Sequence record: PX880099.1
Length of the DNA stretch: 64,000 bases
Source: a phage
Reading direction: 5' to 3' (one strand)
In this document: positions 21,164 through 38,544 of the stretch, piece by piece
How positions within the stretch are numbered: position 1 is the first letter of the stretch
Layout: each line of letters starts with the position of its first letter
Notes under the pieces: generated by a model
Databases searched by the model: none
The model's input: the letters and a program-made list of their open reading frames with translations, nothing else
What the model was told of the DNA's origin: nothing
Position numbers and translations under genes: made by a program

Positions 21164-23317
21164 ATGAAACAAGCTATATTTACTGTCACGCGAGACAAGA
21201 GAGTAAATGCGAGTTCATTTAACTACACGACTGTTGACGGAACAGCAGTCGCTGGTAGAGATTATATAGCAAAATCGGGAACACTTGTGTTCCCGGATGA
21301 TGCTGATTCTGCTACCATTGTGGTTGAAGTATTTGAACGACCAAAGAACTCAATAGATCTTAACTTCTCCCTCCAAGTTTCAGGGATTAGTCAAAATAAC
21401 ATGATGGTTGAAACGACCATCAATTGTATTATAACTACTATCCAAGAAAATACTACTCCAATAACTTGGACTACAAAAGACGTTAAAATGTTTTCTCCTA
21501 TGTATTGGACAATAGATTCTCAAGCAACGGAAAGTTGTTCTATTGTATCTCATGGAGACTCTTTTACTGCAAGATTTGTAAACAGAACAACAGCAGGTTT
21601 GGCAGGGGTTATCTGGAGCACAGTTGACAAATATGACCATAAAGGTGTTGGGTATTTACCCCACACAGATTTAAGTTCAGAGAAACTTTGGTTTAAAATG
21701 GAAATTAGTCAAAACATGCCAGGTTTTAAAGAAGAACCTTTGGTGCCAACTTTGACTGTAACTCTCTTGGATAAAAGTGTCCACTATGTTAGTTTAGGAT
21801 TTTATGCTTCAGATATTTCAGAAGATGGTAAAACAGCTACAATCAAATTAGATTTTGGTAATATCTTCTCTGGTCCTAATAATGATATTCCTTTGGACAT
21901 GAGTGCTGTAGATAATATTTTCTTCTCTTTGATTACAGCAAGGTATGAAGAAATAGAAGAGATTGTGCCTATTGATAGTCAAGAGGCTTGGTTTACTTTC
22001 ACTCTTCTTGAACCTACTTCTGGTTATAGTATGATGAAAGTCAGTAACCTTGTCCAGCCTGAACATGATATTCGCATGTGCACATCTTATGACGATATGT
22101 ATAACCTGACTCCAGAGAGAGTTATTTATAATACATATGCGCTAGGTTATCGTGGAATGATTAACCATTACAATGGAATGTCTCACTATTATGAGTTCTC
22201 ATGGAACGGAACATCTTGGGCTTTAAATAGATCTGTCTTCCTGAATCCAGCTACAGAAGCTTGGCTAAATAGTTTCCATTCTATAGCGAACGAGAAGGGT
22301 TACACAATAATGAACTCTTTAAGTTTTGAGTTGATGAGCACAGTTTGTCCTGTTGAATGGGTCCAGCATGATTGGAACGATGCTCTTGCAGCAACAGGGT
22401 ATGAACCTCCTAGTTATGTGTTGTCTCCAACTATTGACGAAGGTATGGAATATTTGCAAAATGTTATTAATAAAATAGCATCTATTTCGCAAGCTAATAA
22501 TATTCCAGTTGTCATTCAAATTGGTGAGCCTTGGTGGTGGTATAATACAGCAAGTAAAATGCCTTGCATATATGATTACACTACCAAACTGGCATTCAAC
22601 ACAGAAACAGGTTTATTTGCACAAGATGCAGGAACAATAGATAATTATAAAACAGGAACGCCGTTTGACGAATACTATGCATTTTTGTCTCGTAAACTAG
22701 GATTAAGAGTTACAAAGTTTGCAACAGATACTAGAGCAAATTACCCAGGAGCCAAGGTAACATTGCTTCCGTTCTTGCCATCAATTATCGGCAACGGTTT
22801 GATGGAGAAAGTTAACTTCCCGTCTGATTACTACATTCCTGAAGCTTTTGATTTTTACTGTTCAGAGTGTTATGACTGGCTTCTGGAAGGTAAGATGATG
22901 AAAGCATTTGATGCAATTACTATACCACATGAAAAATTAGGTTTTGAATATTCTGATATTCACTACCTTTCAGGTTTTGTTCCAGATGCTACTCTTGCAC
23001 CTTTGTATGGCTTTGATCCTAAATCAAACTACCGCACATATCTTTGGAAGATGATTATAGGTAACATAGTGTTGAACGCCAATAAGTTTGACGGACTTAC
23101 ACAATATATATGGGCCTATCCTCAAATAATGCATGATTCTATCACGGTAGTTAATTCTCAATCCCAAGTTTTCTATATGGGTAACGTGCCTTTGAACGTT
23201 TATTTACAGGATATCACTCTTAAACAGGTAAATGTTGAGATTGCCACCATAAGTGGAATTACATTAGCCACTAAATCTGGAGAAGATTTAGTAACAACAC
23301 AAAAATTTTATATATAG
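21164..23317 (+). CDS. Large structural protein (putative tail fibre/spike)
   Basis: 717 aa in the same insertion. Confidence 0.5.
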   Translation: MKQAIFTVTRDKRVNASSFNYTTVDGTAVAGRDYIAKSGTLVFPDDADSATIVVEVFERPKNSIDLNFSLQVSGISQNNMMVETTINCIITTIQENTTPITWTTKDVKMFSPMYWTIDSQATESCSIVSHGDSFTARFVNRTTAGLAGVIWSTVDKYDHKGVGYLPHTDLSSEKLWFKMEISQNMPGFKEEPLVPTLTVTLLDKSVHYVSLGFYASDISEDGKTATIKLDFGNIFSGPNNDIPLDMSAVDNIFFSLITARYEEIEEIVPIDSQEAWFTFTLLEPTSGYSMMKVSNLVQPEHDIRMCTSYDDMYNLTPERVIYNTYALGYRGMINHYNGMSHYYEFSWNGTSWALNRSVFLNPATEAWLNSFHSIANEKGYTIMNSLSFELMSTVCPVEWVQHDWNDALAATGYEPPSYVLSPTIDEGMEYLQNVINKIASISQANNIPVVIQIGEPWWWYNTASKMPCIYDYTTKLAFNTETGLFAQDAGTIDNYKTGTPFDEYYAFLSRKLGLRVTKFATDTRANYPGAKVTLLPFLPSIIGNGLMEKVNFPSDYYIPEAFDFYCSECYDWLLEGKMMKAFDAITIPHEKLGFEYSDIHYLSGFVPDATLAPLYGFDPKSNYRTYLWKMIIGNIVLNANKFDGLTQYIWAYPQIMHDSITVVNSQSQVFYMGNVPLNVYLQDITLKQVNVEIATISGITLATKSGEDLVTTQKFYI

Positions 23318-23325
23318 GAGTAAAA

Positions 23326-25101
23326 ATGTCAACTACAATTACTAATTTACCCGAAACATCAAAAGTTAATGGTTCTGATTACCTGGTTTTAGACCAACCT
23401 GATAAGACTGTTAAAAGCACAGTTTCCAACTTTCTTACTGACACTGGGGTGGTTTTAGCCACCCAGTTGAAAGATACTGGCTCAGAGTTAGTTACTTATA
23501 AATCTGCATTGAGTGGTGCGATTGCGCGTAACATCCATGAACGACTTTCTGACTATGTAAGTGTTAAAGACTTTGGTGCAATTGGTGATGGAGTTGCTGA
23601 TGATACAGCAGCAATACAGATAGCTAATGATGCAGCTACAGAAGTGGGTACTACTTTGTTCTTCCCTAAAGGGGTGTATCGTTGTACTGATGGTATCGAC
23701 AAGACTTGTGAATGGGTAGGTTCAGGTGCTGCAAAAATAGGTGCTTTTCCTCTTACGGATGATAAAGTATTTATGATACCAGGAATCAAGAACAAACTAC
23801 CTGGTACTTGCTTGTTATTCACTGGTGTAGGAACAAAATCTTTCTCTACAAATAGAGAAGACGAGTTCTCTAGTGTACGCTATTGTGTGTTAAATAAGGG
23901 AAGGAAAGGGCAAGGGTTAACACCTTTCGGTAAAGACCTAGCAATAGTGTGTGATTTTAACTATAAGAATACACTAGACGGAGAAGTTACAGATCCTACT
24001 AATGACAACTCTGCGGATTACGATGTAGGGTTGTTAATGCACAATACAGACCTATCTGGCCCATCTAATGTAACAGTCGGGGGTTATTTCAAGGTAGCAG
24101 GTACAATGCACTTTGGGCAAGACCCTGACGGGTGTACTGTATATGAATTAAGGACTATGGGAAACATTGGCCTAGCTATAGTAGGGGATGGCACTGGCAC
24201 TAATAGTGCATTTAATATGCACGGTGGTGCTATCTTTGGAAACGACCATCACAGCCGTAACGTAGAGTCCGGTGTAGAGAAGTGGGGAAAACATGCACTA
24301 TACATAGACATCCCATCTTCTGTAGGTTCTGGTTCACGTAATGGTATCTCCTTCCATGGAACATGGCTGGCAACTAAGTTAGATGTTCCAGTAAAATATG
24401 ACAGATGCGGTGCTATCCAATTCTTTGGTGTGGTGTTTGAGAATGCAACACAAGCAGGTAGCCAACAAGCGGGAGGTATTAAAAAACAAATTGGAACCAG
24501 TAATACAGGTGATATAGGTTTCTTTGGGTGCAGATTTAATTCAGACCAGATACGTATTTCTGGTGCTTTATTGGATACTGCGACGGAATCGACAGTGATC
24601 GTTTCTGGAAGTAATGCTGGATATGGTGTTGAATTTTGGAAAGGAAAGGTTGGAGGGCGTTTTACAGGAAGCAAAAATCAAACAAATATTCAACTAACGG
24701 ATGATCCAACAAAAACAACTAGTGGTGTGGTTCTACGTCGTGATTCTTCTGGTAATTTTAATATCTTACATAACAATGATATTAAATTTACATGCGACGG
24801 TGGGGGGATTAAGACCCACCTATCATCAACTGTAGCTACAGTTAGTGGTGGTCAGACTAATATAACTAGAAACTTGCACAAGCTAAGTGGTGGTACTCAA
24901 GAGTTAAACACATTGAACGGTGGAGTCGAAGGGATGCGTGTTGTTTTAGTGAGAAACACATCTGCCGACACAATTACACTAAAGAATCAAACAGGCAATT
25001 TACGCATCAATGGGGACTTTACTCTAGGAGCCTTCGACACTATAGAGCTAATTTACATAGGTGGTTATTGGAATGAAATAGGACGAGTTGACAGGGCTTA
25101 A
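23326..25101 (+). CDS. Tailspike with pectate-lyase-fold (beta-helix) domain, putative depolymerase
   Basis: 591 aa; conserved fibre-anchor-like N-terminus, then VKDFGAIGDGVADDTAAIQ motif typical of Pectate_lyase_3-type beta-helix proteins. Confidence 0.6.
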   Translation: MSTTITNLPETSKVNGSDYLVLDQPDKTVKSTVSNFLTDTGVVLATQLKDTGSELVTYKSALSGAIARNIHERLSDYVSVKDFGAIGDGVADDTAAIQIANDAATEVGTTLFFPKGVYRCTDGIDKTCEWVGSGAAKIGAFPLTDDKVFMIPGIKNKLPGTCLLFTGVGTKSFSTNREDEFSSVRYCVLNKGRKGQGLTPFGKDLAIVCDFNYKNTLDGEVTDPTNDNSADYDVGLLMHNTDLSGPSNVTVGGYFKVAGTMHFGQDPDGCTVYELRTMGNIGLAIVGDGTGTNSAFNMHGGAIFGNDHHSRNVESGVEKWGKHALYIDIPSSVGSGSRNGISFHGTWLATKLDVPVKYDRCGAIQFFGVVFENATQAGSQQAGGIKKQIGTSNTGDIGFFGCRFNSDQIRISGALLDTATESTVIVSGSNAGYGVEFWKGKVGGRFTGSKNQTNIQLTDDPTKTTSGVVLRRDSSGNFNILHNNDIKFTCDGGGIKTHLSSTVATVSGGQTNITRNLHKLSGGTQELNTLNGGVEGMRVVLVRNTSADTITLKNQTGNLRINGDFTLGAFDTIELIYIGGYWNEIGRVDRA

Positions 25102-25106
25102 CTAGA

Positions 25107-25128
25107 CAGTGCGTAAGCACTGCTTTTC
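25107..25128 (+). terminator. Terminator after tailspike gene
   Basis: CAGTGC / GTAA loop / GCACTG followed by CTTTTC. Confidence 0.5.
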
Positions 25129-25223
25129 ACACAACTTTTCTTAAAGGTTATCCTAGAGATAGCCTTTCTGAATGGGTGGTATCAGAAAAGTTATTCCATG
25201 CATCTGTTTCCCTGTAACACTAT

Positions 25224-25245
25224 CCCCTCTCTGGAGGGGTTTCTT
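25224..25245 (+). terminator. Second hairpin with T-rich tail
   Basis: CCCCTC / TCTG loop / GAGGGG followed by TTTCTT, just upstream of the RBS of small ORF 25266. Confidence 0.4.
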
Positions 25246-25265
25246 AGAAAAACAAAGAGGTACTT

Positions 25266-25415
25266 ATGAACGAATTATTCTCCCAAGGCGGTATTGCCCC
25301 AGGTACTACTGCCATTAGTCTTAGTGCTGCTGTACTTGTGCATTCAGCGGGTTCTGTAGACCTTGGGGAATTAGCTGTATCTCGTGATTTAAAAAGTAAT
25401 GAGAACGCACTATGA
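25266..25415 (+). CDS. Small hypothetical protein (49 aa)
   Basis: Not in ORF track (below 60 aa). AAGAGG RBS 6 nt before ATG; stop overlaps next start (ATGA). Confidence 0.35.
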   Translation: MNELFSQGGIAPGTTAISLSAAVLVHSAGSVDLGELAVSRDLKSNENAL

Positions 25416-25654
25416 GAAAATTTTTAATAGGTATGTTCTGTACATATCCTGATAATAAAGTCAGTTCTACTAAAGTCTGGAACGCTGTAGGCATGTCGGT
25501 TATGACAGGCATGTTTATCTTTTTAGGAATAGAAAAAGAAATTCCTGAATGGATGGGTTGGGCTTTTGTTTTCATGATAACCCCTTCTCGCCTCATGAAA
25601 AATCTTATTGATTTACGTTGGGGCAGATCACAATCTACCAAAGAGGATGACTAA
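25412..25654 (+). CDS. Small membrane protein (two predicted TM helices)
   Basis: 80 aa with hydrophobic segments VWNAVGMSVMTGMFIFLGI and WMGWAFVFMITP; coupled to upstream and downstream genes. Confidence 0.5.
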   Translation: MRKFLIGMFCTYPDNKVSSTKVWNAVGMSVMTGMFIFLGIEKEIPEWMGWAFVFMITPSRLMKNLIDLRWGRSQSTKEDD

Positions 25655-27141
25655 TGGACGAATATGGTTTGACAGATGCGGGATTTGTAATCCCGACTTT
25701 TGACGATGTTTTAAACAACTACATGACAGCAGTAAAAAACACATTTGGTGCAGATGCAGCCACTTCGGAAGATACTGTGATCGGACAACTGTTTAGAATA
25801 ATTGCATATACAGATTACACATTGTGGGAAGGTATGCAAGGGGTTTATAATACTCAAACACTGGATGGTGCAGAAGGTATTTATCTTGATGAAATCTTTT
25901 CTAAACGTGGTTTCTATCGAGCAGGGGCGGCAGCAAGTACAGGTTATGCATATGTTAAAAGTAATAACAAAGCAGCTTGGACTTATGAGTTAGGCACGGA
26001 TATTTACTTCAACTCTGATAGTGATATGAACTACTATGTTAGCACACCAACTATGTTGAATGCTAAGATTGCAGCTTATCAAATCTCTCGTGCTAATGCA
26101 ACTGCTACAGGTGTTCCAAATATTACTTTTTATGCACAAAGTGCGGTGGATGGAGGACTAAACAGTAAAACACTTGCACCTGGTTCTTCTACATTTATAA
26201 CCGATCTTGAAACTTTTATCAAGGCGAATTTAACAGAAGCTGATCGTAGTCTTGTATTTTCTGATTCAGGTAACTTATCAATTGGTTTTACTTCTTTAAC
26301 CAGTGATACTCCAGTGGGACTAGTAACTCCTATCAAATTTTATGCTAGTGTTCCAGTTGGAACTAAATGGAGTGAAATTCCAGTAGTTGCAGCAGAGAAA
26401 GGATACAATCCTGTTGGTGTGGAGTCTATTACAGGGATATCTTCTACCTTTACAGGTTATCTTGACAGTGGTAACTTCTATTCATTTTCTCCGGGTCGAG
26501 ATGTTGAGACAGACGCAGAATTCCGCTCTCGTTTCAATGACAACGTTGATGAAGCTAACGCAGGGACACGAGCAGCTATTGTGAAAGCTCTGCTACTTAC
26601 AGATGGTGTTACTAAGGTGAAGATTTATGATAACCCTACATTACATGATCAAGAACATGCTCCAGCTATGACTTTCCAGACTATAGTTTATGGTGGCAGT
26701 GCAGAAGAAATTGCAAATGTTATCTATAAAACCAAACCAATCAACACTTTGACACACGGAACAACTAACATAACAGTTACAACAGAAGATGGAGGACAAG
26801 AAATTATTCGCTTCTCTCCTGGTGCTTCTGCTATGTATTCCGTAAAACTTGTTTATCAAACTGTCAACGGAACAACTTTAAGTGGAACAGAAAAACAAAA
26901 CATCGTAGAAGCTTTACAAAACCTGCAAGCTTACTTTGAGTTAGGTTCTTCAGTAACGAACGATCAAATCAAAGGTGTTATTTATGCAGCACTTGCTTTT
27001 GGACGCTTGACTTCTCTTCGTGTTTATGTTAAACTTAATACTGAGGATGACAGTAAATATACAGAGAATAATATAGTTCCTGCTTATAATGTTGTCCCTT
27101 CTTTTGACCTTGATAACATTTCTTACGAGTATGGAGTGTAA
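25654..27141 (+). CDS. Baseplate wedge protein, J-like (P2 gpJ / T4 gp6 family)
   Basis: 495 aa; N-terminal YGLTDAGFVIPTFDDVL pattern typical of Baseplate_J proteins; followed by I-like and fibre genes. Confidence 0.5.
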   Translation: MDEYGLTDAGFVIPTFDDVLNNYMTAVKNTFGADAATSEDTVIGQLFRIIAYTDYTLWEGMQGVYNTQTLDGAEGIYLDEIFSKRGFYRAGAAASTGYAYVKSNNKAAWTYELGTDIYFNSDSDMNYYVSTPTMLNAKIAAYQISRANATATGVPNITFYAQSAVDGGLNSKTLAPGSSTFITDLETFIKANLTEADRSLVFSDSGNLSIGFTSLTSDTPVGLVTPIKFYASVPVGTKWSEIPVVAAEKGYNPVGVESITGISSTFTGYLDSGNFYSFSPGRDVETDAEFRSRFNDNVDEANAGTRAAIVKALLLTDGVTKVKIYDNPTLHDQEHAPAMTFQTIVYGGSAEEIANVIYKTKPINTLTHGTTNITVTTEDGGQEIIRFSPGASAMYSVKLVYQTVNGTTLSGTEKQNIVEALQNLQAYFELGSSVTNDQIKGVIYAALAFGRLTSLRVYVKLNTEDDSKYTENNIVPAYNVVPSFDLDNISYEYGV

Positions 27142-29738: not shown

Positions 29739-32700
29739 ATGGCAACATTCCCAACATATCCAGCAACGTCTCTTGAACAGGGCGTAGATCTGGTTATTTT
29801 CTCGTCTAACCAACTCCATGATGTTATTAATGGAAGTGCTACAGAGAGTATTGAAACAGAATCAGGGTTGATACCAACCCTGAGAAAAGCCCTTGTTGAC
29901 AACTTTTTCTTTAAAAGCCCATTGGATTGGGCGCAAGGCACAAACGAAACAGTTTTTAACCAACTTCGTTATTTCCAGAATGGAGTGTTGAGTGGTTATT
30001 ACTATGCGCCTAATGCTACACTGGTAAACCCAATTCCTATGCAAGGGACTCCAGTAGGAGATAACAACTGGGTATTGTGGGGACTGAAGACAGAACAACT
30101 AGCAACAGAAGTCACCCCTTGGGTGTATTCTGGTGCAACTGGTTATGAAACAGTAATCAGTCCTCCCTACATCTTTGATAGTGCTATTGTTACAATCAAT
30201 GGTGTTATTCAGGTTCTGGGAGAAGCTTTCCGCATAGAAGATAGTAAAATCATTTTATCTGAACCTTTGGGGCATGATCCTGCAACAGGACTGCCAAACA
30301 AGCTTTTTGCCTATATTGGTAAAATCGTAGCTTCCGCAGATACAGATCCTAACTTAGAAAACCGTCTTGTCAGTTTAGAAACAAAAACTGAAGAACTGAC
30401 AGAAAGCATGGATAAAGTACCTTTACAAACTATTGCTCGTAAATACGGTTTGTTGGATGATGAAGTAGCTTACGCAACAGCGGGTCAATCATTAACAGGG
30501 ATTAAAGCTCTGTATGATCCGGTAGCACAATCTTCCTACACATTGCCTCCTAACATCACAGGGACTTTAACATCTTTGTCTGTTTCTGGAGTAATGACTT
30601 ATTCTGGCGGATCTGTAGATCTTTCTGCATTAGCTGTTGAACGTGGACAGTTTGTTCATTTGCCTACAAGCTTTGGTAATAACGTAACTCTGACAGCTAA
30701 AAATCAGACGATTGGGCGTGGCGCTGGTCGCTATCGTTGGGCGGGGAGTTTACCAAAAAGTATTTTAGCTTCTGATACATTGGAGACAAGCGGTGGATTA
30801 GGTCCAAACGCATGGGTTCTAACTAATACAGAAGGACTGTTAACCCCTCGTGGTGGAACATACAACGATTTATTCGATGTTGTCTACTTGTCAGAATTTG
30901 CTAACAATACAACTACCTATGCCACACCAGAAGCAGCTTTCCAGGCGGCACTGTTAGCGGCAAAAGCTTCGAAAAGTAAGATTCTCGATGCTTACGGTTG
31001 CGATATGACTTTCACGACAAGCTCTTTTGATATTCAAGGTATCACTTTGCGTGGGGGTGTGTTCCGTGGTCAACGCGACTATCGTGTGCAAAATGCTACA
31101 GTAGAAGGCACAACTTTCCGTAACTCTCGTGTTATGTATTGGGGTGGTGCTGTGCGCATGTTCGATTGTTTGTGGGACGGTGCTCCTCGCGCAGGTCAAG
31201 TTGGTAGCTTGGTATTCCAAGGCAACCCAATATCAGGTACTTTTGAAATTGATAATTGTACTTTTAAAAATGGGTTATATGGCATCCTTCAACAAGGAAC
31301 AGGGGAACCAGTAACACGCGGTGTCTTCCGTAACCTTACCTTCATGGACATGCAAGGTGATGCAATAGAACTGAACGTCATCAATAAACATTACGATGAT
31401 GGTTGTGTAATTGAGAATATTTACCTGTCTAATATCGATGGGACTAACGCTCCTATTCCTCTGTCCAACTGGGGTATCGGTATCGGTGTAGCTGGTAAAG
31501 GACCATATGGTTACGGAATCCCTGATGATCAATATTGCAAGAATATTACAATTCGTAACGTTTTTGCAAAACGTTGTCGTCAGATTGTCCACGTAGAAGT
31601 TGGTCGTAATATCTCTATCGAAAACATTCATGGCGATCCAGATCAAACCGTATCTGTTGGGACAGGTTTGGCAACTGGCGCAGTTGTAATGTATGGAAGT
31701 AAAGATTTTACGATTGACGGTGTTTACGGAGAGCCTAAAACAGACGGTAGCACACTTGCAAGTAATATCCGTATGATTTATTTGGAGTGGGGAACTAACG
31801 CAGTTCTGGACGAAGAGGGTAATCCGGTAGTTCCGGCACAGGGCAGACCTTCAAACCCATGCTTTAACTATTCTGTTCGTAACATTCACACCAAAACTGG
31901 GCGTGTTTTTGCAGGAGTTTCCGCTGGGCCAGGCTATGAAAACAGAGTCAGCTTTGAGAATATCCGTTGTGCTGCGTTGCAGTTGTTCGGTGTAGCTTCT
32001 TGGCTTTCAATGTCTAACATCACCTGTAATATCTTTGATTGTGTTGGTCAACCTGAATCTGGTCCAGGGACATTTTATGATGGATTCTTCCGTAGAGAAA
32101 AATCTGTTCTTGAGATGGTTAACGTAAACTGTTACCCAGATGGCAAGACTATGGTTACTGGTCGCCCACAGTGGAGCCGTTGCCGTTACTCTGATATTCA
32201 TCGTGTCAACTGTAATGTTGAAGCTAATATGTATACCAATATCGCAGGTGGTATTGGAGCTATTGTAGGGACAACTGGCAAAGTTTATTACTTAGAGCCT
32301 AACCCTAGCCGAAACATTGATGGGATGCATTTCCCAACAGGGAAGGAGTTTGACAAAGGGGATATGATAGTCAAAGCGGATAATACGTTCTTCCTTGTAA
32401 CAACAAGTGGGGCATACATTCCAGATATCCCAGCTTTCGGTATTCGAGCTACACAAGCAGGAGATACCTTCCTGACACAGAACTTGACTCCTAATGGGAC
32501 AGCAACAAACGCTTCTTGGTTGTATCACTATCCTCTGTCAGCAGGAACACGTATCCGTATTCCTGGTGCTGGTGTAGGTGGAGCAGATTTGGACACAGTT
32601 ATTACTCGTGCACCTTATCAAGATAATGATACGTGGACTAACCCAGTTAAAATAGACATTGCAGATCCAATTGTAACGCCTACGAGTGCTGGAGTTAGAA

Positions 32701-32792
32701 TCAAAACCATACCTAACGATTCTAGTAATGTTTCTGTAGGTAATACTGCGGTTATTCGCCCAACGCCAGTGGTAGATGTGCCAACAACCTAA
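29739..32792 (+). CDS. Large tail fibre/spike with parallel beta-helix region (putative depolymerase)
   Basis: 1017 aa; central region with beta-helix-like repeats (NCTFKNGLYGILQQG, CVIENIYLSNIDG, NITIRNVFAKRC, NISIENIHGD). Confidence 0.55.
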   Translation: MATFPTYPATSLEQGVDLVIFSSNQLHDVINGSATESIETESGLIPTLRKALVDNFFFKSPLDWAQGTNETVFNQLRYFQNGVLSGYYYAPNATLVNPIPMQGTPVGDNNWVLWGLKTEQLATEVTPWVYSGATGYETVISPPYIFDSAIVTINGVIQVLGEAFRIEDSKIILSEPLGHDPATGLPNKLFAYIGKIVASADTDPNLENRLVSLETKTEELTESMDKVPLQTIARKYGLLDDEVAYATAGQSLTGIKALYDPVAQSSYTLPPNITGTLTSLSVSGVMTYSGGSVDLSALAVERGQFVHLPTSFGNNVTLTAKNQTIGRGAGRYRWAGSLPKSILASDTLETSGGLGPNAWVLTNTEGLLTPRGGTYNDLFDVVYLSEFANNTTTYATPEAAFQAALLAAKASKSKILDAYGCDMTFTTSSFDIQGITLRGGVFRGQRDYRVQNATVEGTTFRNSRVMYWGGAVRMFDCLWDGAPRAGQVGSLVFQGNPISGTFEIDNCTFKNGLYGILQQGTGEPVTRGVFRNLTFMDMQGDAIELNVINKHYDDGCVIENIYLSNIDGTNAPIPLSNWGIGIGVAGKGPYGYGIPDDQYCKNITIRNVFAKRCRQIVHVEVGRNISIENIHGDPDQTVSVGTGLATGAVVMYGSKDFTIDGVYGEPKTDGSTLASNIRMIYLEWGTNAVLDEEGNPVVPAQGRPSNPCFNYSVRNIHTKTGRVFAGVSAGPGYENRVSFENIRCAALQLFGVASWLSMSNITCNIFDCVGQPESGPGTFYDGFFRREKSVLEMVNVNCYPDGKTMVTGRPQWSRCRYSDIHRVNCNVEANMYTNIAGGIGAIVGTTGKVYYLEPNPSRNIDGMHFPTGKEFDKGDMIVKADNTFFLVTTSGAYIPDIPAFGIRATQAGDTFLTQNLTPNGTATNASWLYHYPLSAGTRIRIPGAGVGGADLDTVITRAPYQDNDTWTNPVKIDIADPIVTPTSAGVRIKTIPNDSSNVSVGNTAVIRPTPVVDVPTT

Positions 32793-32857: not shown

Positions 32858-34882
32858 ATGAATTTAACAAGACCTAATAGTGCGATAGCCGATCTAGTAG
32901 AAGCTACTTATCGAAAACGTCGCAGTTTTGAGGCAGGTTTTACATTACGTAATTCCCGTGAAGTTTTGCTGTTAGCGGCAGAAGGGAATTATTACCAATG
33001 GAAAGGAACTTTTCCTAAAGTAGTTCCAGCAAACTCTACGCCAGCCACCACAGGTGGTATTTCTTCCCTTGCATGGCAAAGTGTTGGGACCGCTGATGAT
33101 ATAGCAATTATCAATGCCAAGTTTACGGCAATGCAGCAACAGATTGATGATCTGTCGGAAACAATACCTGAAGCTGGTAAATCGGCTTATCAGATCGCAC
33201 TTGATAATGGTTTTGTTGGAACAGAAGCACAATGGCTTGCTTCTTTGAAAGGGGATACTGGTGCTCAACTTAATATTAAAGGATCATTAGCAAGCACTAG
33301 TGAACTACCATCTACAGGTAACGTTGCAGGGGATGGTTATATCGTAGGTGATGTGATTTACGCTTGGGATGGTTCTGTTTGGAAACTTATTTCTTCTCTT
33401 GGGCCAGAAGGTAAATCAGCTTATGAGGTATGGTTGGCAGATGGTAATACAGGATCTGTTTATGATTTTCTTACCTCTATAAAAGGTGATAAAGGCGATG
33501 TTGGTCCTACAGGGCCACAGGGAGCACCTGGTGTTAACGCCAACGGTTTTGATTATCGTGGGGATTTGCCTTCTACAAGTAACTTACCACAACCTAACTC
33601 TGAAAACGTAAGCCAAGCTTATTCTATCAATGGTAATCTTTATGTCTCCAATGGGACAGCTTGGGTCAACATGGGTAATATTGTTGGTCCTCAAGGTCCA
33701 CAAGGTGAGGCAGGTAAAGACGGTCTAGATGGAACAGATGGAGATGAAGGGAAATCTGCATATCAAAGTTGGCTGGATGCTGGTAATGAAGGGACAGAAG
33801 TAGATTTTATTGCCTCGCTTAAAGGTCCAAAAGGAGACAAGGGAGAGCAAGGAGAACGAGGACCACAAGGCGAATTAGGTCCACAAGGACCAGTGGGTGC
33901 AACAGGATCAGGTTTAGAGATTATCGGGGTTCTGAACAGCGAAGCTGAACTTCCTCCGACTGGAGAAGTAGGTGATGCATATAAAATTAATAATGATTTG
34001 TATGTTTGGGTTCAAGATGCTACGGAATGGATGAATGTTGGCAGTCTTGGAGGAACATCAATTACAGCTAAAGGTCATGTTCCAAACAGTGAAGCTCTCC
34101 CTGTTTACAATAACTATGGCGATGCCTACTTAACTGAAGACACTAGTAATCTTTACATCTATACCTACGATCAAGACACCAATTCCGCATCTTTTGTTGA
34201 CATGGGAAGTATTAAAGGCGACAAAGGTGAAAAAGGGGATAAAGGAGATAAGGGTGATCCTGGAACAAACGGAACCAACGGTACTGATGGGACCAACGGT
34301 AAGGACGGCGCACAGTGGTTTGTAGCAACAACTAATCCAGTCGCAGGAGACGGTGTTATCAATGATTACGCCTTCAATACTACCACTGGAGCAGTGTTTA
34401 AGAAAACAGATTCTTCTACGTGGACACTTATAGGAACTCTTCCTAGTATACCAGAAGCTCCTCAAGACGGCTTGACGTATGGTCGTTCTGATGGAAACTG
34501 GATCGAAATATCAGGATCAGATCCTACGGAAGCTATAACGCCAACTAGAGTTACAGCAGGTTTCATGGAACTTGAAACAACTACTGCCAACTCTGGAGCA
34601 TCTTGGACTCCTTCTGGAACTTCCAATATGTATGTTGTTACAGTAACTGACGCTCTGACAGTTGGAGCATGGCCTGGTGTCACTGGCTCTACAAAACCTA
34701 AAGCGTTTTCAGCAATGATTTATTTGATTCAAGATACAACGGGACACACGGTTACACTAGATGCGTCTTATGGAGCACTAAATGATACAGAAATAGCAAC
34801 TACTGCTAACGCAGTAACAATTTTGCAATTAACGTATCCTGGTGTGGGTGATATCGTGGACATGGTTGTTGTAACACGATAA
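32858..34882 (+). CDS. Tail fibre with collagen-like Gly-X-Y repeats
   Basis: 674 aa; several interrupted G-X-Y runs (GPQGPQGEAGKDGLDGTDGDEGK; KGDKGEKGDKGDKGDPGTNGTNGTDGTNGKDG). Confidence 0.6.
   Translation: MNLTRPNSAIADLVEATYRKRRSFEAGFTLRNSREVLLLAAEGNYYQWKGTFPKVVPANSTPATTGGISSLAWQSVGTADDIAIINAKFTAMQQQIDDLSETIPEAGKSAYQIALDNGFVGTEAQWLASLKGDTGAQLNIKGSLASTSELPSTGNVAGDGYIVGDVIYAWDGSVWKLISSLGPEGKSAYEVWLADGNTGSVYDFLTSIKGDKGDVGPTGPQGAPGVNANGFDYRGDLPSTSNLPQPNSENVSQAYSINGNLYVSNGTAWVNMGNIVGPQGPQGEAGKDGLDGTDGDEGKSAYQSWLDAGNEGTEVDFIASLKGPKGDKGEQGERGPQGELGPQGPVGATGSGLEIIGVLNSEAELPPTGEVGDAYKINNDLYVWVQDATEWMNVGSLGGTSITAKGHVPNSEALPVYNNYGDAYLTEDTSNLYIYTYDQDTNSASFVDMGSIKGDKGEKGDKGDKGDPGTNGTNGTDGTNGKDGAQWFVATTNPVAGDGVINDYAFNTTTGAVFKKTDSSTWTLIGTLPSIPEAPQDGLTYGRSDGNWIEISGSDPTEAITPTRVTAGFMELETTTANSGASWTPSGTSNMYVVTVTDALTVGAWPGVTGSTKPKAFSAMIYLIQDTTGHTVTLDASYGALNDTEIATTANAVTILQLTYPGVGDIVDMVVVTR
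33481..34320 (+). repeat. Collagen-like triplet-repeat segments within fibre gene
   Basis: Repeated GGN-NNN-NNN codon periodicity encoding G-X-Y runs at ~33481-33540, 33686-33750, 33821-33910 and 34201-34320. Confidence 0.6.
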
Positions 34883-34923: not shown

Positions 34924-37599
34924 ATGTTTCCAATTCCAATATTTACTATTATGACCAGCACTGGTGTCGTTCCTCTGCCAGCAGGTATTGTTAAAAAAGT
35001 AATCACTTTAGATTACCCAGACAATGCTGGTAATTCTAACAGCAGTTTAGCAATTTTGCTTAATGATGGTAGATTGTTTACTCAAGGCGCAAACCTTTTT
35101 GGTGAGATTGCAGATGGAACTCGTAGTGCACGATTCAATAACTTCCACTTAGCTTCTACTGTAGTAGCGGATGTGTTTACCGCAGATCGTTGTTTTGTTA
35201 TTAAAACTAACAGTGGGGGATGGCAATATTCAGGATTGACAGCAGGATTGGTAGGATCTATAGCAGCAGGTGGTACGGACGCATGTGTAACTACTTGGAC
35301 CAGCTTTCCATCTGTAATAACAGGGACTATCTCTTTAGCCAATCTTAAAGAGGTTAAGGGAGGATATAACAACACTCTCTGGTTAATGAATAGTGGTGTT
35401 CTTTATGGATCAGGTCAAAACACAGTAGGTAGTTTAGGTGCAAGTACTACTAACGAAGTTTCTACTCCTCGTCAGATAACAAGTGCAGCAGTTGCTTTTG
35501 ATGCAGGTTACAACCAATGCTCTTATGTCAACAATGTGGGAACCTTGCGTGTTTGTGGAGCTAGTAAAGGTTTAGCAGGTAATAATAACACAACAACAGC
35601 TTTTGTCAATGCCAAGATATCCGCTACTGAAACAGTGTATGTCAAAGATTACATCAATACAGTTTCCCAGACAATAGTTGTAGGAGATACCTCCGGTGGC
35701 ACGGGTACAGTAAACTACTTATATGTTAGATCTAATACAGAAACAACCTACACTAAACTGGATACCTTTGCAGCAGGTTTCTCAACATGGAAGTTTCCAC
35801 CAAGCCGCCACTCTTTTTTCGTTGGGATCAATAATTCCTTGTGGGCTATTGGTAAGAACTACACTGCAAACTTAGGTTTGGGGTATGATTCTGCGAGCGG
35901 AGATCCACTCCAAGTGGGAAAACCAGTTAAACCTGAAGGAGTGGGTTCTTGGGATATAAACAAGCTCACAAGCGTTCATACGCTGAATATGGATGTTACT
36001 AACCAATTAGGTTATCAAGGAACCTTTTTCGTTTATAATGGAGATATGTATTATTCCGGTATTTGGAAAGATGGGAAAGCCTCGTATCTGTTCAATAGTG
36101 GTCTAAACTATAATAAATTCACACCAATAGCAAGCTCCGTGATTACGGGTGATATTCTGGCAACTGGCTTAACTACAGATTCTTTAGGAATTTGTATTGT
36201 AGGCGGAACTAAACAGTTGACACATTCTGTTAGCCCAGAAGGAGGTAAACTTTTCAATATTAAATACACTTCTTCTGCCCCTGCAAACATGACAATATCA
36301 TCTACTGGTTTAATGACTTTCCATGCAGAAGGTGGTTTTGATGCAGGTATGACAGCCTTAAACGCTGAAGGAACAACTTTATCAGATACCTCTGGAGGAT
36401 ATGCTTCAACATTGAGCGTTTACACTCCTAGCTTATCTGCAATGGATGTAGGAACAACACAAACAATGGTAGCAGAAATAACGCCAACAGGGGCAGCAAG
36501 CTTACCTGGTATGGTTGTTGAGTATTTCTCTAATGACCCTACGGTAGCAACAGTTGACCCCGTTACAGGCGTTATTACAGCAGTTGCTGATGGGGATTGT
36601 CGTATCGGTTGTAGAGCAACTTATCAAGGTGTGGTAACTGCCGAAGATAGTTCTTATCTCGCAGTGAATGCTGTGGTGATTGTGATGGACTATGATTTGA
36701 CGCAAGAAACTATTCCGGCGGATGTAAAGGTCAACAGGAGTAACCGTTATGCCAGGGCTTCTGGAGATATCCTTGTACCTACGGAGAGTTCTGCTCCCGT
36801 AGCACCTTTAGAATATGTTGGTACAACTCCACAAGGTAGACGTGTTGTAGCAGCCAACCGTACACATATCTTTATCAACAACAACTTGACAACAGCTTCC
36901 CCGTGGTTGAAGACGAACTTGACAGTCACGGCATCAACAATCAACTCTCCGGTTGGAACTACGGCTAACACTTACAAGTTAACACCTTCTACAACTTCAG
37001 GACAACATATTTTATCAGCAGTGAATACAGCTTCTGATATTACAGCAGGTAAGCACTGGGCGGCATCCGTATTCTTGAAGCCAGACGGGATCACTAAAGT
37101 GAAACTCAAATTGACTTCAGGAGATGAGATTAACGAAGGGACTTATGATCTTGTAGCTGGAACATTTACAGGTGCAGATGCAAACATAATCGATATGGGG
37201 AATGGTTGGTATCGTGTAATTCTACACAAAGTGACAGTTGCCAAACAAGCATCTATAACCTATGAGATTATAGCTTTGAATGCAAGTGGATCAGACACTT
37301 TCGCAGGAGATGGTACGGCAGGTCTTATTGCTTGGGTTCCACAGCTTGAGATGGGTGATATGACAAATCCAGTTTGGGCGGGGACACCATTTGTTTGTTC
37401 TTATGCACGAGACACTACCAGTGCTGTTACCTTCACTATTCCTAAGAATGGACATACTGGCGTGGACATTTACCACACTGATGGTACTGTGCAACGAGAG
37501 GTCTTCACTGGTACAGCTACAACTTGGATGTTGACGTTCACCGCCGCAAGTGCGGATTGGGGATCGAAGTTCATTACAGGTTTGAAATATTACGACTAA
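34924..37599 (+). CDS. Large tail fibre protein
   Basis: 891 aa; G/T/S/N-rich repetitive sequence; last gene of plus-strand structural block. Confidence 0.5.
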   Translation: MFPIPIFTIMTSTGVVPLPAGIVKKVITLDYPDNAGNSNSSLAILLNDGRLFTQGANLFGEIADGTRSARFNNFHLASTVVADVFTADRCFVIKTNSGGWQYSGLTAGLVGSIAAGGTDACVTTWTSFPSVITGTISLANLKEVKGGYNNTLWLMNSGVLYGSGQNTVGSLGASTTNEVSTPRQITSAAVAFDAGYNQCSYVNNVGTLRVCGASKGLAGNNNTTTAFVNAKISATETVYVKDYINTVSQTIVVGDTSGGTGTVNYLYVRSNTETTYTKLDTFAAGFSTWKFPPSRHSFFVGINNSLWAIGKNYTANLGLGYDSASGDPLQVGKPVKPEGVGSWDINKLTSVHTLNMDVTNQLGYQGTFFVYNGDMYYSGIWKDGKASYLFNSGLNYNKFTPIASSVITGDILATGLTTDSLGICIVGGTKQLTHSVSPEGGKLFNIKYTSSAPANMTISSTGLMTFHAEGGFDAGMTALNAEGTTLSDTSGGYASTLSVYTPSLSAMDVGTTQTMVAEITPTGAASLPGMVVEYFSNDPTVATVDPVTGVITAVADGDCRIGCRATYQGVVTAEDSSYLAVNAVVIVMDYDLTQETIPADVKVNRSNRYARASGDILVPTESSAPVAPLEYVGTTPQGRRVVAANRTHIFINNNLTTASPWLKTNLTVTASTINSPVGTTANTYKLTPSTTSGQHILSAVNTASDITAGKHWAASVFLKPDGITKVKLKLTSGDEINEGTYDLVAGTFTGADANIIDMGNGWYRVILHKVTVAKQASITYEIIALNASGSDTFAGDGTAGLIAWVPQLEMGDMTNPVWAGTPFVCSYARDTTSAVTFTIPKNGHTGVDIYHTDGTVQREVFTGTATTWMLTFTAASADWGSKFITGLKYYD

Positions 37600-37606
37600 T
37601 AAAAAA

Positions 37607-37635
37607 GGGAACCCGCAAAGGTTCCCTTTTCTTTT
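37607..37635. terminator. Bidirectional rho-independent terminator at convergent module boundary
   Basis: GGGAACC / CGCAAA loop / GGTTCCC flanked by A-run upstream and T-run downstream; lies between converging genes ending at 37599 (+) and 37663 (-). Confidence 0.7.
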
Positions 37636-37662
37636 ATAAAAACTCTTTATAAATCAATAAGA

Positions 37663-38544
37663 TCAGAATGGAATATCATCATCGAAGTCCATTGGAGGTT
37701 CTTCTTGATTACTTGGTTCTGGTTGTGGTTCAGGTTTCTTCTCTTCTTTCTTCTCTTCTTTCTTAGGTTGTTCTGCGGAACCACGAATGGCAGCAGCAAC
37801 TTTATCAGACAGAGCCAGAACTTTACGAGCAGAGTCGATCAGATCTTCTACAGATACAGTCTTAATGGTATGGTCTTTACAAGCATTGAGGATAGCGTGA
37901 CCAACAGATGCCCCAAGATCATAATCATTAATATCAACACCACGAGATTCAGCAATTTCCGATTTCAGCGTGACAGTTGCAGATTGAACAACCCCAGCGA
38001 TATCGAAAGCATCGCCTTTAACACCATTACGAATCAGTTCCAGTGCACCATTTACTGCGTGACCAGTTTCCAGACCTACAGTATCACGTTTTTTATAGGA
38101 TTGCTTAGGAGCAGCATCGTTGGAACCCTTATTGCCAGAAGATTTGTTAGACTTCTGAACACCATCGGTAGACAATACTGTAATACGAGATTTTTTAGTA
38201 TTGTAGTAAGTTTTACCGCCTTTATTATCAACGCGATCAATATCAATACTTACTTCTACACCTTTTTCAATAGTGATCCAGTTATCACCTTCTTTGACTT
38301 GCAGGTTTTCATAACCTTCTTTCAGTTCAATGTCACCAAGAGAAATCCAAACACCTTTCTCATCTGGTTTAGCACCTTTCTCTTTCAGAACAAGAGAAGC
38401 TCGGTGAGTTGAAACAATCGTTTTTCCTTCCCAATGAAAAGTTTTAGGTTCAGCGAATTTATCCAGTTTAACGTAGTCTACGATACCAGTTGCATAAGTT
38501 ACGGTTTTGCCTTTACGATCAGTTTCAGTATTAATTACGGACAT
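37663..38544 (-). CDS. Putative single-stranded DNA-binding protein with E. coli SSB-like C-terminal tail
   Basis: 293 aa; ends PMDFDDDIPF, identical in pattern to the E. coli SSB C-terminal tip, preceded by low-complexity KKEEKKEEKKPEPQPEP linker; GAGGAG RBS. Confidence 0.55.
   Translation of the reverse strand: MSVINTETDRKGKTVTYATGIVDYVKLDKFAEPKTFHWEGKTIVSTHRASLVLKEKGAKPDEKGVWISLGDIELKEGYENLQVKEGDNWITIEKGVEVSIDIDRVDNKGGKTYYNTKKSRITVLSTDGVQKSNKSSGNKGSNDAAPKQSYKKRDTVGLETGHAVNGALELIRNGVKGDAFDIAGVVQSATVTLKSEIAESRGVDINDYDLGASVGHAILNACKDHTIKTVSVEDLIDSARKVLALSDKVAAAIRGSAEQPKKEEKKEEKKPEPQPEPSNQEEPPMDFDDDIPF

What the first reader, a model, noticed from the sequence alone, without database searches (positions are those of the whole stretch)
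23326..25101. Tailspike with pectate-lyase-type beta-helix signature, probable polysaccharide depolymerase
After a fibre-anchor-like N-terminus the protein carries VKDFGAIGDGVADDTAAIQ, the characteristic start of pectate-lyase-3 / tailspike beta-helix enzymes. The 1017-aa protein at 29739-32792 has a separate beta-helix-like central region. Two different depolymerase-like spikes would suggest recognition of two different capsule or O-antigen types.
Basis: partly seen in the sequence, partly recalled or inferred. Interest (0 to 1): 0.45.

Follow-up and report, generated by a model that had tools for sequence, protein, structure and literature searches.

The report
Swappable beta-helix tailspike, phi92-like phage
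This gene encodes a phage tailspike: a short, widely shared attachment peg joined to a rare beta-helix enzyme-like body that most likely binds and cuts a still-unknown sugar coat of E. coli. It is an ordinary example of how these phages swap host-range modules.

Summary

The window is a phAPEC8-like Phapecoctavirus. The gene sits in the slot that holds the endosialidase gp143 in phi92, and its first 51 residues match gp143 at 49 positions. That peg is found on at least 48 different bodies. This body occurs in only five of 50,697 phage records, in a few ε15-like E. coli prophages, and on T7-type anchors.

Seventy-four homologues conserve a polar set (K147, R177, D210, Y254, D268, D307-H-H-x-R311, D328, invariant E372). 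I could not link this set by sequence or profile to any solved enzyme. Hydrolase versus lyase, and the target glycan, therefore stay open.

The 1017-aa protein is the family's conserved colanidase-like spike. It is 99.8% identical to phAPEC8 gp088, and its body is 33% identical to phi92 gp150.

Verdict: ordinary, a new member of a known kind.

The parts
23316..23320 (+). Shine-Dalgarno AGGAG, 5 nt before the ATG, overlapping the stop codon of the upstream 717-aa gene
   Evidence: Read directly from the sequence.
23326..25101 (+). Tailspike gene (591 aa plus stop), positional equivalent of phi92 gene 143
   Evidence: ORF list. Gene order matches phAPEC8, alia and phi92. A 99%-identical 591-aa protein, P0001, occurs on contigs up to 149.8 kb.
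23326..23478 (+). Virion-anchor module, aa 1-51 (MSTTITNLPETSK...ATQLKDT)
   Evidence: 49/51 identical to the phi92 gp143 N-terminus. Nt 1-152 are shared at 99-100% with 79 other phage records that carry other bodies. Identity to phAPEC8 stops exactly at 23478. 71 proteins with this anchor carry about 48 unrelated bodies. Modelled as disordered in the monomer (pLDDT <50 for aa 1-55).
23479..23562 (+). Linker/neck, aa 52-79, itself exchangeable
   Evidence: Phage alia has the same anchor and body but a different linker that is 17 aa shorter. P0020 has the same anchor and linker joined to a different body. pLDDT 50-68.
23563..23619 (+). Beta-helix N-terminal cap motif VKDFGAIGDGVADDTAAIQ (aa 80-98)
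   Evidence: Pfam PF12708 matches aa 77-127, E=2.4e-11, above cut-off. It is the only part that aligns by sequence or profile to solved structures such as GH55, AlgE4, PfbA and the Sf6 tailspike.
23563..24585 (+). Right-handed parallel beta-helix body, about aa 80-420
23764..24441 (+). Span holding the conserved polar set, the candidate active or binding site: K147, K155, R177, D210, D227, Y254 (24085-24087), D268 (24127-24129), D307-H308-H309-S-R311 (24244-24258), D328 (24307-24309), E372 (24439-24441)
   Evidence: Conservation in 74 homologues of 23-87% identity: E372 100%, R311 99%, R177/Y254/D328 97%, K147/D268 96%, D210 95%, H308 93%, H309 92%. The window protein keeps every one of these residues.
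24586..25098 (+). C-terminal beta-sandwich region, about aa 421-591; its last ~90 aa are a divergent Phage_depo_C (PF25692) domain at aa 509-582, nt 24850-25071
   Evidence: DSSP strand pattern. PF25692 scores 17 bits, below its cut-off of 25. The same profile segment matches 5-7 tandem copies in other proteins that do pass PF25692. N558, R560 and W582 are conserved. No peptidase_S74 chaperone domain.
25103..25180 (+). Conserved 'inter-tailspike' element directly after the stop codon: hairpin 25104-25124 plus a T-run, then a second hairpin at 25143-25167
   Evidence: 81-87% identical to the spacer between the two tailspike genes of SP6-like and K1-5-like podophages. The first stem shows a compensatory change. 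Fold energy -26.7 kcal/mol, z=-3.2. No Rfam family matches.
25266..25415 (+). 49-aa relic of the 5' end of a Kuttervirus-type tailspike gene, internally deleted and truncated; marks the right edge of the swapped cassette
   Evidence: Aligns to residues 1-8 and 62-95 of Salmonella phage S8 TSP S8_156. Matches tailspike PHROGs. Also present in alia and UP17.
23479..25416 (+). Extent of the cassette that differs from phAPEC8, where the endosialidase body sits
   Evidence: blastn of window 23000-25999 against phAPEC8: identity ends at 23478 and resumes at 25417.
29739..32792 (+). Second beta-helix spike (1017 aa), colanidase-like, conserved in the subfamily, positional equivalent of phi92 gene 150
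   Evidence: 1015/1017 identical to phAPEC8 gp088. aa 1-215 are 75% and aa 455-1002 are 33% identical to phi92 gp150. PDB 6e0v E=1.9e-79. phrog_6117 E=1.5e-282, and Tail_spike_N at aa 302-361. Partial WcaM similarity.

Best explanation
The 591-aa protein is the exchangeable receptor-binding tailspike of a phAPEC8-like (Phapecoctavirus) myovirus. Its 51-residue N-terminal peg docks it on the virion. [quoted passage not shown] A short linker leads to a right-handed beta-helix followed by a beta-sandwich end. The helix carries a groove lined by a conserved polar set (Y254, D268, D307-H308-H309-x-R311, D328, E372, plus K147/R177/D210). This groove most likely binds a repeat-unit polysaccharide on the E. 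coli surface (O-antigen or capsule, identity unknown) and cleaves it. Cleavage would let the phage move through the glycan layer until the conserved fibres reach the outer membrane. I rate a glycoside hydrolase as somewhat more likely than a lyase. The gene arrived as a cassette (23479-25416) by recombination between the conserved peg on the left and conserved 'inter-tailspike' or relic sequences on the right. The same body is found on other anchors in other phage types. Shown here: the ORF, motif, fold, anchor identity, slot, cassette borders, family conservation and mosaic distribution. Inferred: trimer, position on the virion, enzymatic cleavage, chemistry and substrate.
Against: There is no biochemical or host-range evidence for this protein or any member of its body family in the papers searched. 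Beyond the cap motif, nothing aligns by sequence or profile to a characterised active site, so 'enzyme' rests on conservation and analogy. Phage alia carries the same body and was isolated on K-12 MG1655, a strain that by general knowledge lacks O-antigen and capsule, so the spike is dispensable on that host. Prophage copies of one allele occur in both O146:H21 and O178:H7 strains, so no single serotype points to the substrate. Only a monomer was modelled, and the anchor is unstructured in it.
Confidence: 0.75

Rival explanations
1. Same architecture, but the body is a polysaccharide lyase (beta-elimination on a uronic-acid-containing capsule) rather than a hydrolase.
Confidence: 0.25
2. The spike only binds its glycan (a non-catalytic adhesin) and does not cleave it.
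Against: One invariant and about ten near-invariant charged or aromatic residues persist across homologues down to 23% identity, while the rest of the sequence averages 19% column identity. This pattern is typical of an active site. The domain layout (helix plus depolymerase-type C-terminal sandwich) matches enzymatic tailspikes.
Confidence: 0.1
3. The body modifies the glycan (epimerase or esterase type) instead of depolymerising it.
For: The Pfam family name and the structural neighbours include mannuronan C5-epimerases. Other alleles in the same slot carry SGNH esterase domains (PF13472).
Against: The AlgE catalytic motif is not detectably aligned. There is no SGNH or esterase domain in this protein. 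I know of no virion-borne beta-helix epimerase.
Confidence: 0.04

Closest known systems
phi92 gp143 (EndoN92 endosialidase tailspike, 'fibre I') and the phAPEC8 gp095 endosialidase
   Same: Same genomic slot between the N4-gp65-like gene and the small membrane-protein and wedge genes. The first 51 residues are 49/51 identical, so attachment to the virion is presumably the same.
   Different: The body is unrelated. It has no sialidase beta-propeller domains (PF12217/12218/12219) and no C-terminal intramolecular chaperone (PF13884). Instead it has a PF12708 beta-helix and a beta-sandwich end.
Escherichia phage alia gp023 (YP_009985126, Justusliebigvirus) and vB_Eco_J-01 tail protein
   Same: Body 98.8-99.2% identical over aa 76-591. 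Same anchor, same downstream element and same relic ORF.
   Different: The linker differs and is 17 aa shorter. These phages belong to another genus, so the cassette is shared between Phapecoctavirus and Justusliebigvirus. The proteins are annotated only as 'tail protein' or 'hypothetical' and are not characterised.
Beta-helix tailspike depolymerases with solved structures (GVE2 ORF18 7chu, AS12 gp42 6eu4, CBA120 TSP1 4oj5, Depo32 7vz3, phiAB6 5js4)
   Different: Only 11-16% identity. Sequence and profile searches align only the cap motif. I could not link the conserved D-H-H-x-R / E372 set to any of them by sequence; no residue-level structural superposition was available.
ε15/phiV10-like prophage tailspikes of E. 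coli (P0004; WP_097490404.1 in strain 2013C-3033), annotated 'glycosyl hydrolase family 28-related protein'
   Same: Same body family: 77% aa identity to P0004 and 71-74% nt identity for the chromosomal copies.
   Different: A different N-terminal anchor of about 190 aa (phrog_13893/1171). A podovirus prophage context next to the lysis cassette. Possibly a different fine specificity.
phi92 gp150 colanidase (PDB 6e0v), for the 1017-aa protein
   Same: Same slot. N-terminal 215 aa are 75% identical. The beta-helix body is homologous (33% identity over about 550 aa; E=1.9e-79 to 6e0v).
   Different: The window and phAPEC8 version is 213 aa longer and has an inserted Tail_spike_N (TSP1/gp66-type) domain at about aa 229-367. 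At 33% identity, colanic-acid specificity is inferred and not shown.

Membership tests
Pectate-lyase-3 / Pect-lyase_RHGA_epim superfamily (Pfam PF12708) | N-terminal cap motif (DFGAxGDGxxDDTxAIQ) scoring above Pfam's gathering threshold | tested here: met
   aa 77-127, 44.3 bits against a cut-off of 27, E=2.4e-11.
Pectate-lyase-3 / Pect-lyase_RHGA_epim superfamily (Pfam PF12708) | Right-handed parallel beta-helix fold | tested here: met
Pectate-lyase-3 / Pect-lyase_RHGA_epim superfamily (Pfam PF12708) | Catalytic residues of a characterised member (GH28, GH55 or AlgE type) alignable in the body | tested here: not met
   phmmer, hmmsearch and hhalign align only the cap. The body's conserved set is its own.
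Virion-borne phage tailspike depolymerase | N-terminal module homologous to that of a protein shown to be on the virion | tested here: met
   49/51 identity to phi92 gp143 aa 1-51. The virion location of gp143 is from PMC13450770.
Virion-borne phage tailspike depolymerase | Gene lies in the baseplate/tail-fibre module | tested here: met
   Flanked by tail, baseplate-wedge and fibre genes and syntenic with phAPEC8, alia and phi92.
Virion-borne phage tailspike depolymerase | Homotrimer | not testable with these tools
   Only monomer prediction is available.
Virion-borne phage tailspike depolymerase | Degrades a host surface polysaccharide | not testable with these tools
   Needs biochemistry. 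No report was found for any family member.
Virion-borne phage tailspike depolymerase | C-terminal beta-sandwich domain of depolymerase type (PF25692) | tested here: inconclusive
   Direct Pfam score is 17 bits, below the cut-off of 25. The family profile segment matches tandem PF25692 domains in other proteins, and the model shows beta-sandwich-like strands.
Endosialidase (GH58) tailspikes, the usual occupant of this slot in phi92 and phAPEC8 | Sialidase beta-propeller and stalk domains (PF12217/12218/12219/12195) and C-terminal peptidase_S74 chaperone (PF13884) | tested here: not met
   None of these domains is found in the 591-aa protein. They are present in phAPEC8 P0030.
AlgE-type mannuronan C5-epimerase / alginate lyase | YG(F/I)DPH(D/E) catalytic motif in register | tested here: not met
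   hhalign of profile A2 against the AlgE4 A-module aligns only residues 3-49. The AlgE4 sequence was recalled from memory and only residues 4-100 were checked, so this is a weak negative.
Colanidase (phi92 gp150 family), for ORF 29739-32792 | Sequence homology of the beta-helix body to the solved colanidase | tested here: met
   PDB 6e0v E=1.9e-79 over aa 426-1000. 33% identity. phrog_6117 E=1.5e-282.
Colanidase (phi92 gp150 family), for ORF 29739-32792 | Cleaves colanic acid | not testable with these tools
   Activity is reported for phi92 gp150 only, as cited in PMC13450770.

The most novel reading that the evidence does not exclude
The body (aa 80-591) belongs to an uncharacterised depolymerase family of about 170 clusters at 50% identity. 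It is absent from PHROGs v4 and from solved structures beyond the cap. Its conserved Y254 / D268 / D307-H-H-x-R311 / D328 / E372 set may represent a catalytic arrangement, or a glycan specificity, not yet described for beta-helix tailspikes. The family moves between at least four virion architectures using conserved flanking 'handles'.
Probability: 0.2. Interest if true: 0.45.

Novelty: new member of a known kind. Interest (0 to 1): 0.2.

Why it matters
Tailspikes in this slot help decide which encapsulated or smooth E. coli strains phi92- and phAPEC8-like phages can reach, and these phages are candidates for therapy. Three results have practical value. First, the exact module borders are now known: peg 1-51, linker 52-79, body 80-591, and right flank up to 25416. 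Second, the same peg tolerates about 48 bodies, which gives a ready recipe for host-range engineering. Third, an uncharacterised body family is a possible new glycan-cutting tool. None of this changes current understanding of how such phages work.

Tried and rejected
1. Sequence and profile searches of the PDB with the protein and with 20- and 74-sequence profiles matched only the cap motif, so they gave no catalytic assignment.

2. AlgE-like catalytic centre. G253-Y254 ... P267-D268 looked like AlgE4's GY..DPH. A database search with the AlgE4 fragment taken returned only short fragments (wasted). hhalign against an AlgE4 sequence recalled from memory aligned only the cap. I dropped the lead.

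3. Inferring the substrate from lysogen serotypes. Seven of 5,426 complete E. coli genomes carry a prophage copy. The three with published serotypes are O146:H21 (two strains) and O178:H7, and no serotype was given for Ec-RL2-1X. The result is inconclusive.

4. Literature on phages carrying the body (J-01, alia, P151, Sarma103) contains no tailspike, halo or receptor data.

5. NCBIfam gave only a sub-threshold cap match.

6. Rfam found nothing in the downstream element.

7. The minus-strand ORFs inside the gene have no family matches.

8. Mapping the conserved residues onto the 3-D model was not possible, because model coordinates are not exposed to the scripting tool. Only the DSSP strand order could be used.

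Full report
**Observation**

The + strand ORF 23326-25101 (591 aa) exists. It has an AGGAG ribosome-binding site at 23316-23320. The quoted motif VKDFGAIGDGVADDTAAIQ is at aa 80-98 (nt 23563-23619). Pfam PF12708 (Rhamnogalacturonase A/epimerase, pectate-lyase-like) matches aa 77-127 at 44.3 bits against a cut-off of 27, E=2.4e-11. The two minus-strand ORFs inside the gene have no family matches, and the whole block from 1 to about 37.6 kb is a + strand structural module with positive GC skew.

**Which phage, which slot**

Window 17000-38000 is about 97.8% identical over 91% of its length to phAPEC8 and other Phapecoctavirus genomes. The part that does not match phAPEC8 is 23479-25416. This runs from codon 52 of the gene to the start of the next conserved gene, a small membrane protein (phrog_1322). 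In phAPEC8 that interval holds the body of an endosialidase (gp095).

Gene order in the window matches phi92 genes 139-152: hub/spike, small fibre protein, 958-aa tail protein, 717-aa N4-gp65-like protein, this gene, membrane protein, wedge pair, gpH-like fibre and its assembly protein, lipoprotein, colanidase-like spike, collagen-like fibre. The 591-aa ORF is therefore the positional equivalent of phi92 gene 143, the EndoN92 endosialidase.

Translation of the phi92 gene start shows that aa 1-51 are identical at 49 positions. A 2026 cryo-EM study places gp143, by inference, at the tip of the L-shaped fibre I. [quoted passage not shown] I carry that location over to this protein by analogy only.

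**Module structure**

Megablast finds the first 152 nt in 82 phage records, but the full gene in only three: alia (two records) and vB_Eco_J-01, both Justusliebigvirus. Among proteins returned by the homology searches, 71 start with the same peg. After residue 52 they fall into about 48 unrelated body clusters. The bodies include endosialidase, SGNH, GDPD, BNR-sialidase, NAGPA and several beta-helix types.

The alia protein has the same peg and a 99% identical body, but a different linker that is 17 aa shorter. P0020 has the same peg and linker through 'VKDFGAIGDG' and then a different beta-helix. The protein is therefore peg (1-51) + linker (52-79) + body (80-591), and each junction is a recombination point seen in nature.

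**Fold**

Foldseek against viral models returns 'pectate lyase superfamily' tailspikes.

The last ~90 residues score 17 bits on Pfam's 'Phage depolymerase C-terminal beta sandwich' model, below its cut-off. The same profile segment matches 5-7 tandem copies in other proteins that do pass that model. It is probably a divergent member and an independent domain, perhaps carbohydrate-binding. There is no intramolecular chaperone domain.

**The body family**

Full-length relatives of the body are rare among isolated phages. tblastn finds it in 5 of 50,697 records: alia (two records), J-01, and two T7-like phages at 47-48% identity (Rahnella phage Sarma103 and E. coli phage P151). PHROGs v4 has no family covering it, since all PHROG matches end by aa 137.

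A profile search of 1.84 billion representatives finds 172 clusters at E<=1e-30. About 49,000 clusters share only the cap. The body sits on several different anchors: an ε15-like ~190-aa anchor in E. coli prophages next to the holin/GH19 lysis cassette, T7-type PF03906 anchors, and others.

In an alignment of 74 homologues (23-87% identity, mean column identity 19%), the conserved positions are:
- invariant: G160, G253 and E372
- at least 92% conserved: K147, R177, D210, Y254, P267, D268, H308, H309, R311 and D328
- 85-89% conserved: D307, D227 and K155

The window protein keeps all of them. From the DSSP strand order, D268, D307-H309 and E372 follow or lie on the first strand of successive rungs, as expected for residues lining one face of the helix. 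This is inference and not a structural measurement.

**Chemistry and substrate**

I could not assign either. Sequence and profile searches of the PDB align only the cap. A lead that G253-Y254...P267-D268 mimics the AlgE4 catalytic motif was not supported by hhalign. That test was weak, because the AlgE4 sequence came from memory and only its first 100 residues were verified.

The many conserved acidic residues fit a hydrolase. The Tyr/His/His/Arg/Lys residues keep a lyase possible. My estimates are about 0.45 hydrolase, 0.25 lyase, 0.1 binding only, and the remainder other functions or a wrong assignment.

Seven of 5,426 complete E. coli genomes carry a prophage copy at 71-74% nt identity. One allele occurs in both O146:H21 (two strains) and O178:H7, so lysogen serotype does not name the receptor. 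Alia was isolated on K-12 MG1655, so the spike is an accessory host-range module and not essential.

**The second spike**

ORF 29739-32792 is 1015/1017 identical to phAPEC8 gp088. Its first 215 aa are 75% identical, and aa 455-1002 are 33% identical, to phi92 gp150. It matches PDB 6e0v (colanidase gp150) at E=1.9e-79 and phrog_6117 'colanic acid degradation' at E=1.5e-282. It has sub-threshold similarity to WcaM and an inserted Tail_spike_N domain.

It is a conserved, colanidase-like spike. Colanic-acid specificity is inferred, not shown.

**Cassette flanks (beyond the finding)**

Directly after the stop codon, 25103-25180 forms two hairpins (-26.7 kcal/mol, z=-3.2). This stretch is 81-87% identical to the spacer between the two tailspike genes of SP6-like (Zindervirus) and K1-5-like (Vectrevirus) podophages, with a compensatory change in the first stem.

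Further on, 25210-25390 matches the intergenic region and 5' end of a Kuttervirus tailspike gene. The 49-aa ORF 25266-25415 is an internally deleted, truncated relic of that N-terminus. In total, 369 phage records share pieces of this 315-nt flank. These shared flanks, together with the conserved peg, are plausible recombination handles for moving tailspike cassettes between phage families.

Exchange of receptor-binding modules among Agtrevirus, Kuttervirus, Kayfunavirus and Phapecoctavirus phages, and variability at the gp143 position, have been reported before (PMC10791037, PMC10269720). This is consistent with known biology and not new in kind.

**Verdict**

The finding is correct and ordinary. 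It is a new, uncharacterised allele in a known hypervariable tailspike slot of phi92/phAPEC8-like phages. Novelty: new member of a known kind. Interest: about 0.2. The main residual value is the uncharacterised body family and the clearly defined module borders.

Noticed in passing
window 25103-25180: A two-hairpin element directly after the tailspike stop codon is 81-87% identical to the spacer between the two tailspike genes of SP6-like (UAB_Phi78) and K1-5-like (KMB14, K1E) podophages. The first stem shows a compensatory change. In the podophages the element ends in the SD and ATG of the second spike gene; here that start is degenerate. It is probably a terminator plus a recombination handle.
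   Followed up: partly
window 25266-25415 (and 25210-25390): The 49-aa ORF MNELFSQGGIAPGTTAISL...SNENAL is an internally deleted, truncated relic of the N-terminus of a Kuttervirus (Ackermannviridae) tailspike (S8_156). It is also kept in alia and UP17. It looks like the scar of an earlier cassette exchange.
   Followed up: yes
window 23563-23592; protein P0020; L001:21017-21060: The cap motif itself seems to act as a recombination junction. P0020 shares aa 1-89 with this protein and then continues as a different beta-helix. In addition, 44 nt of the motif DNA (23572-23615) are 88.6% identical to a site inside alia's colanidase gene.
   Followed up: partly
window 21164-23317: The 717-aa protein just upstream has a Calx-beta domain, then the N-terminal domain and TIM barrel of the N4 gp65 'non-contractile tail sheath' (PF23845, E=4.9e-79), yet this is a contractile-tailed phage. 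A BASEL paper reports that related Justusliebigvirus phages use the N4 glycan receptor (PMC11990801), so this protein may be the one that binds it.
   Followed up: no
window 34924-37599 and 32858-34882: There are two further candidate receptor-binding proteins. One is an 891-aa protein with an RCC1-like beta-propeller region and a Big_2 domain. The other is a 674-aa fibre with a Tail_spike_N domain and collagen-like repeats.
   Followed up: no
proteins P0238, P0247, P0252, P0254, P0260: The C-terminal ~90-aa domain of the tailspike occurs as 3-7 tandem copies in other large proteins (the 5-7-copy cases are 812-1295 aa), and these pass Pfam PF25692. The domain is therefore an independent, repeatable unit, possibly carbohydrate-binding.
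   Followed up: partly
L004 (E. coli 2013C-3033, NZ_CP027323.1 2675318-2677450): An ε15-like prophage next to yfgI carries a 710-aa tailspike with the same body. PGAP names it 'glycosyl hydrolase family 28-related protein'. The same allele is present in O146:H21 and O178:H7 STEC strains.
   Followed up: partly
window ~37600-38000: Coding strand and GC skew flip here, from + (structural module) to - (methyltransferase, replication and nucleotide-metabolism genes by synteny with alia and phi92).
   Followed up: no
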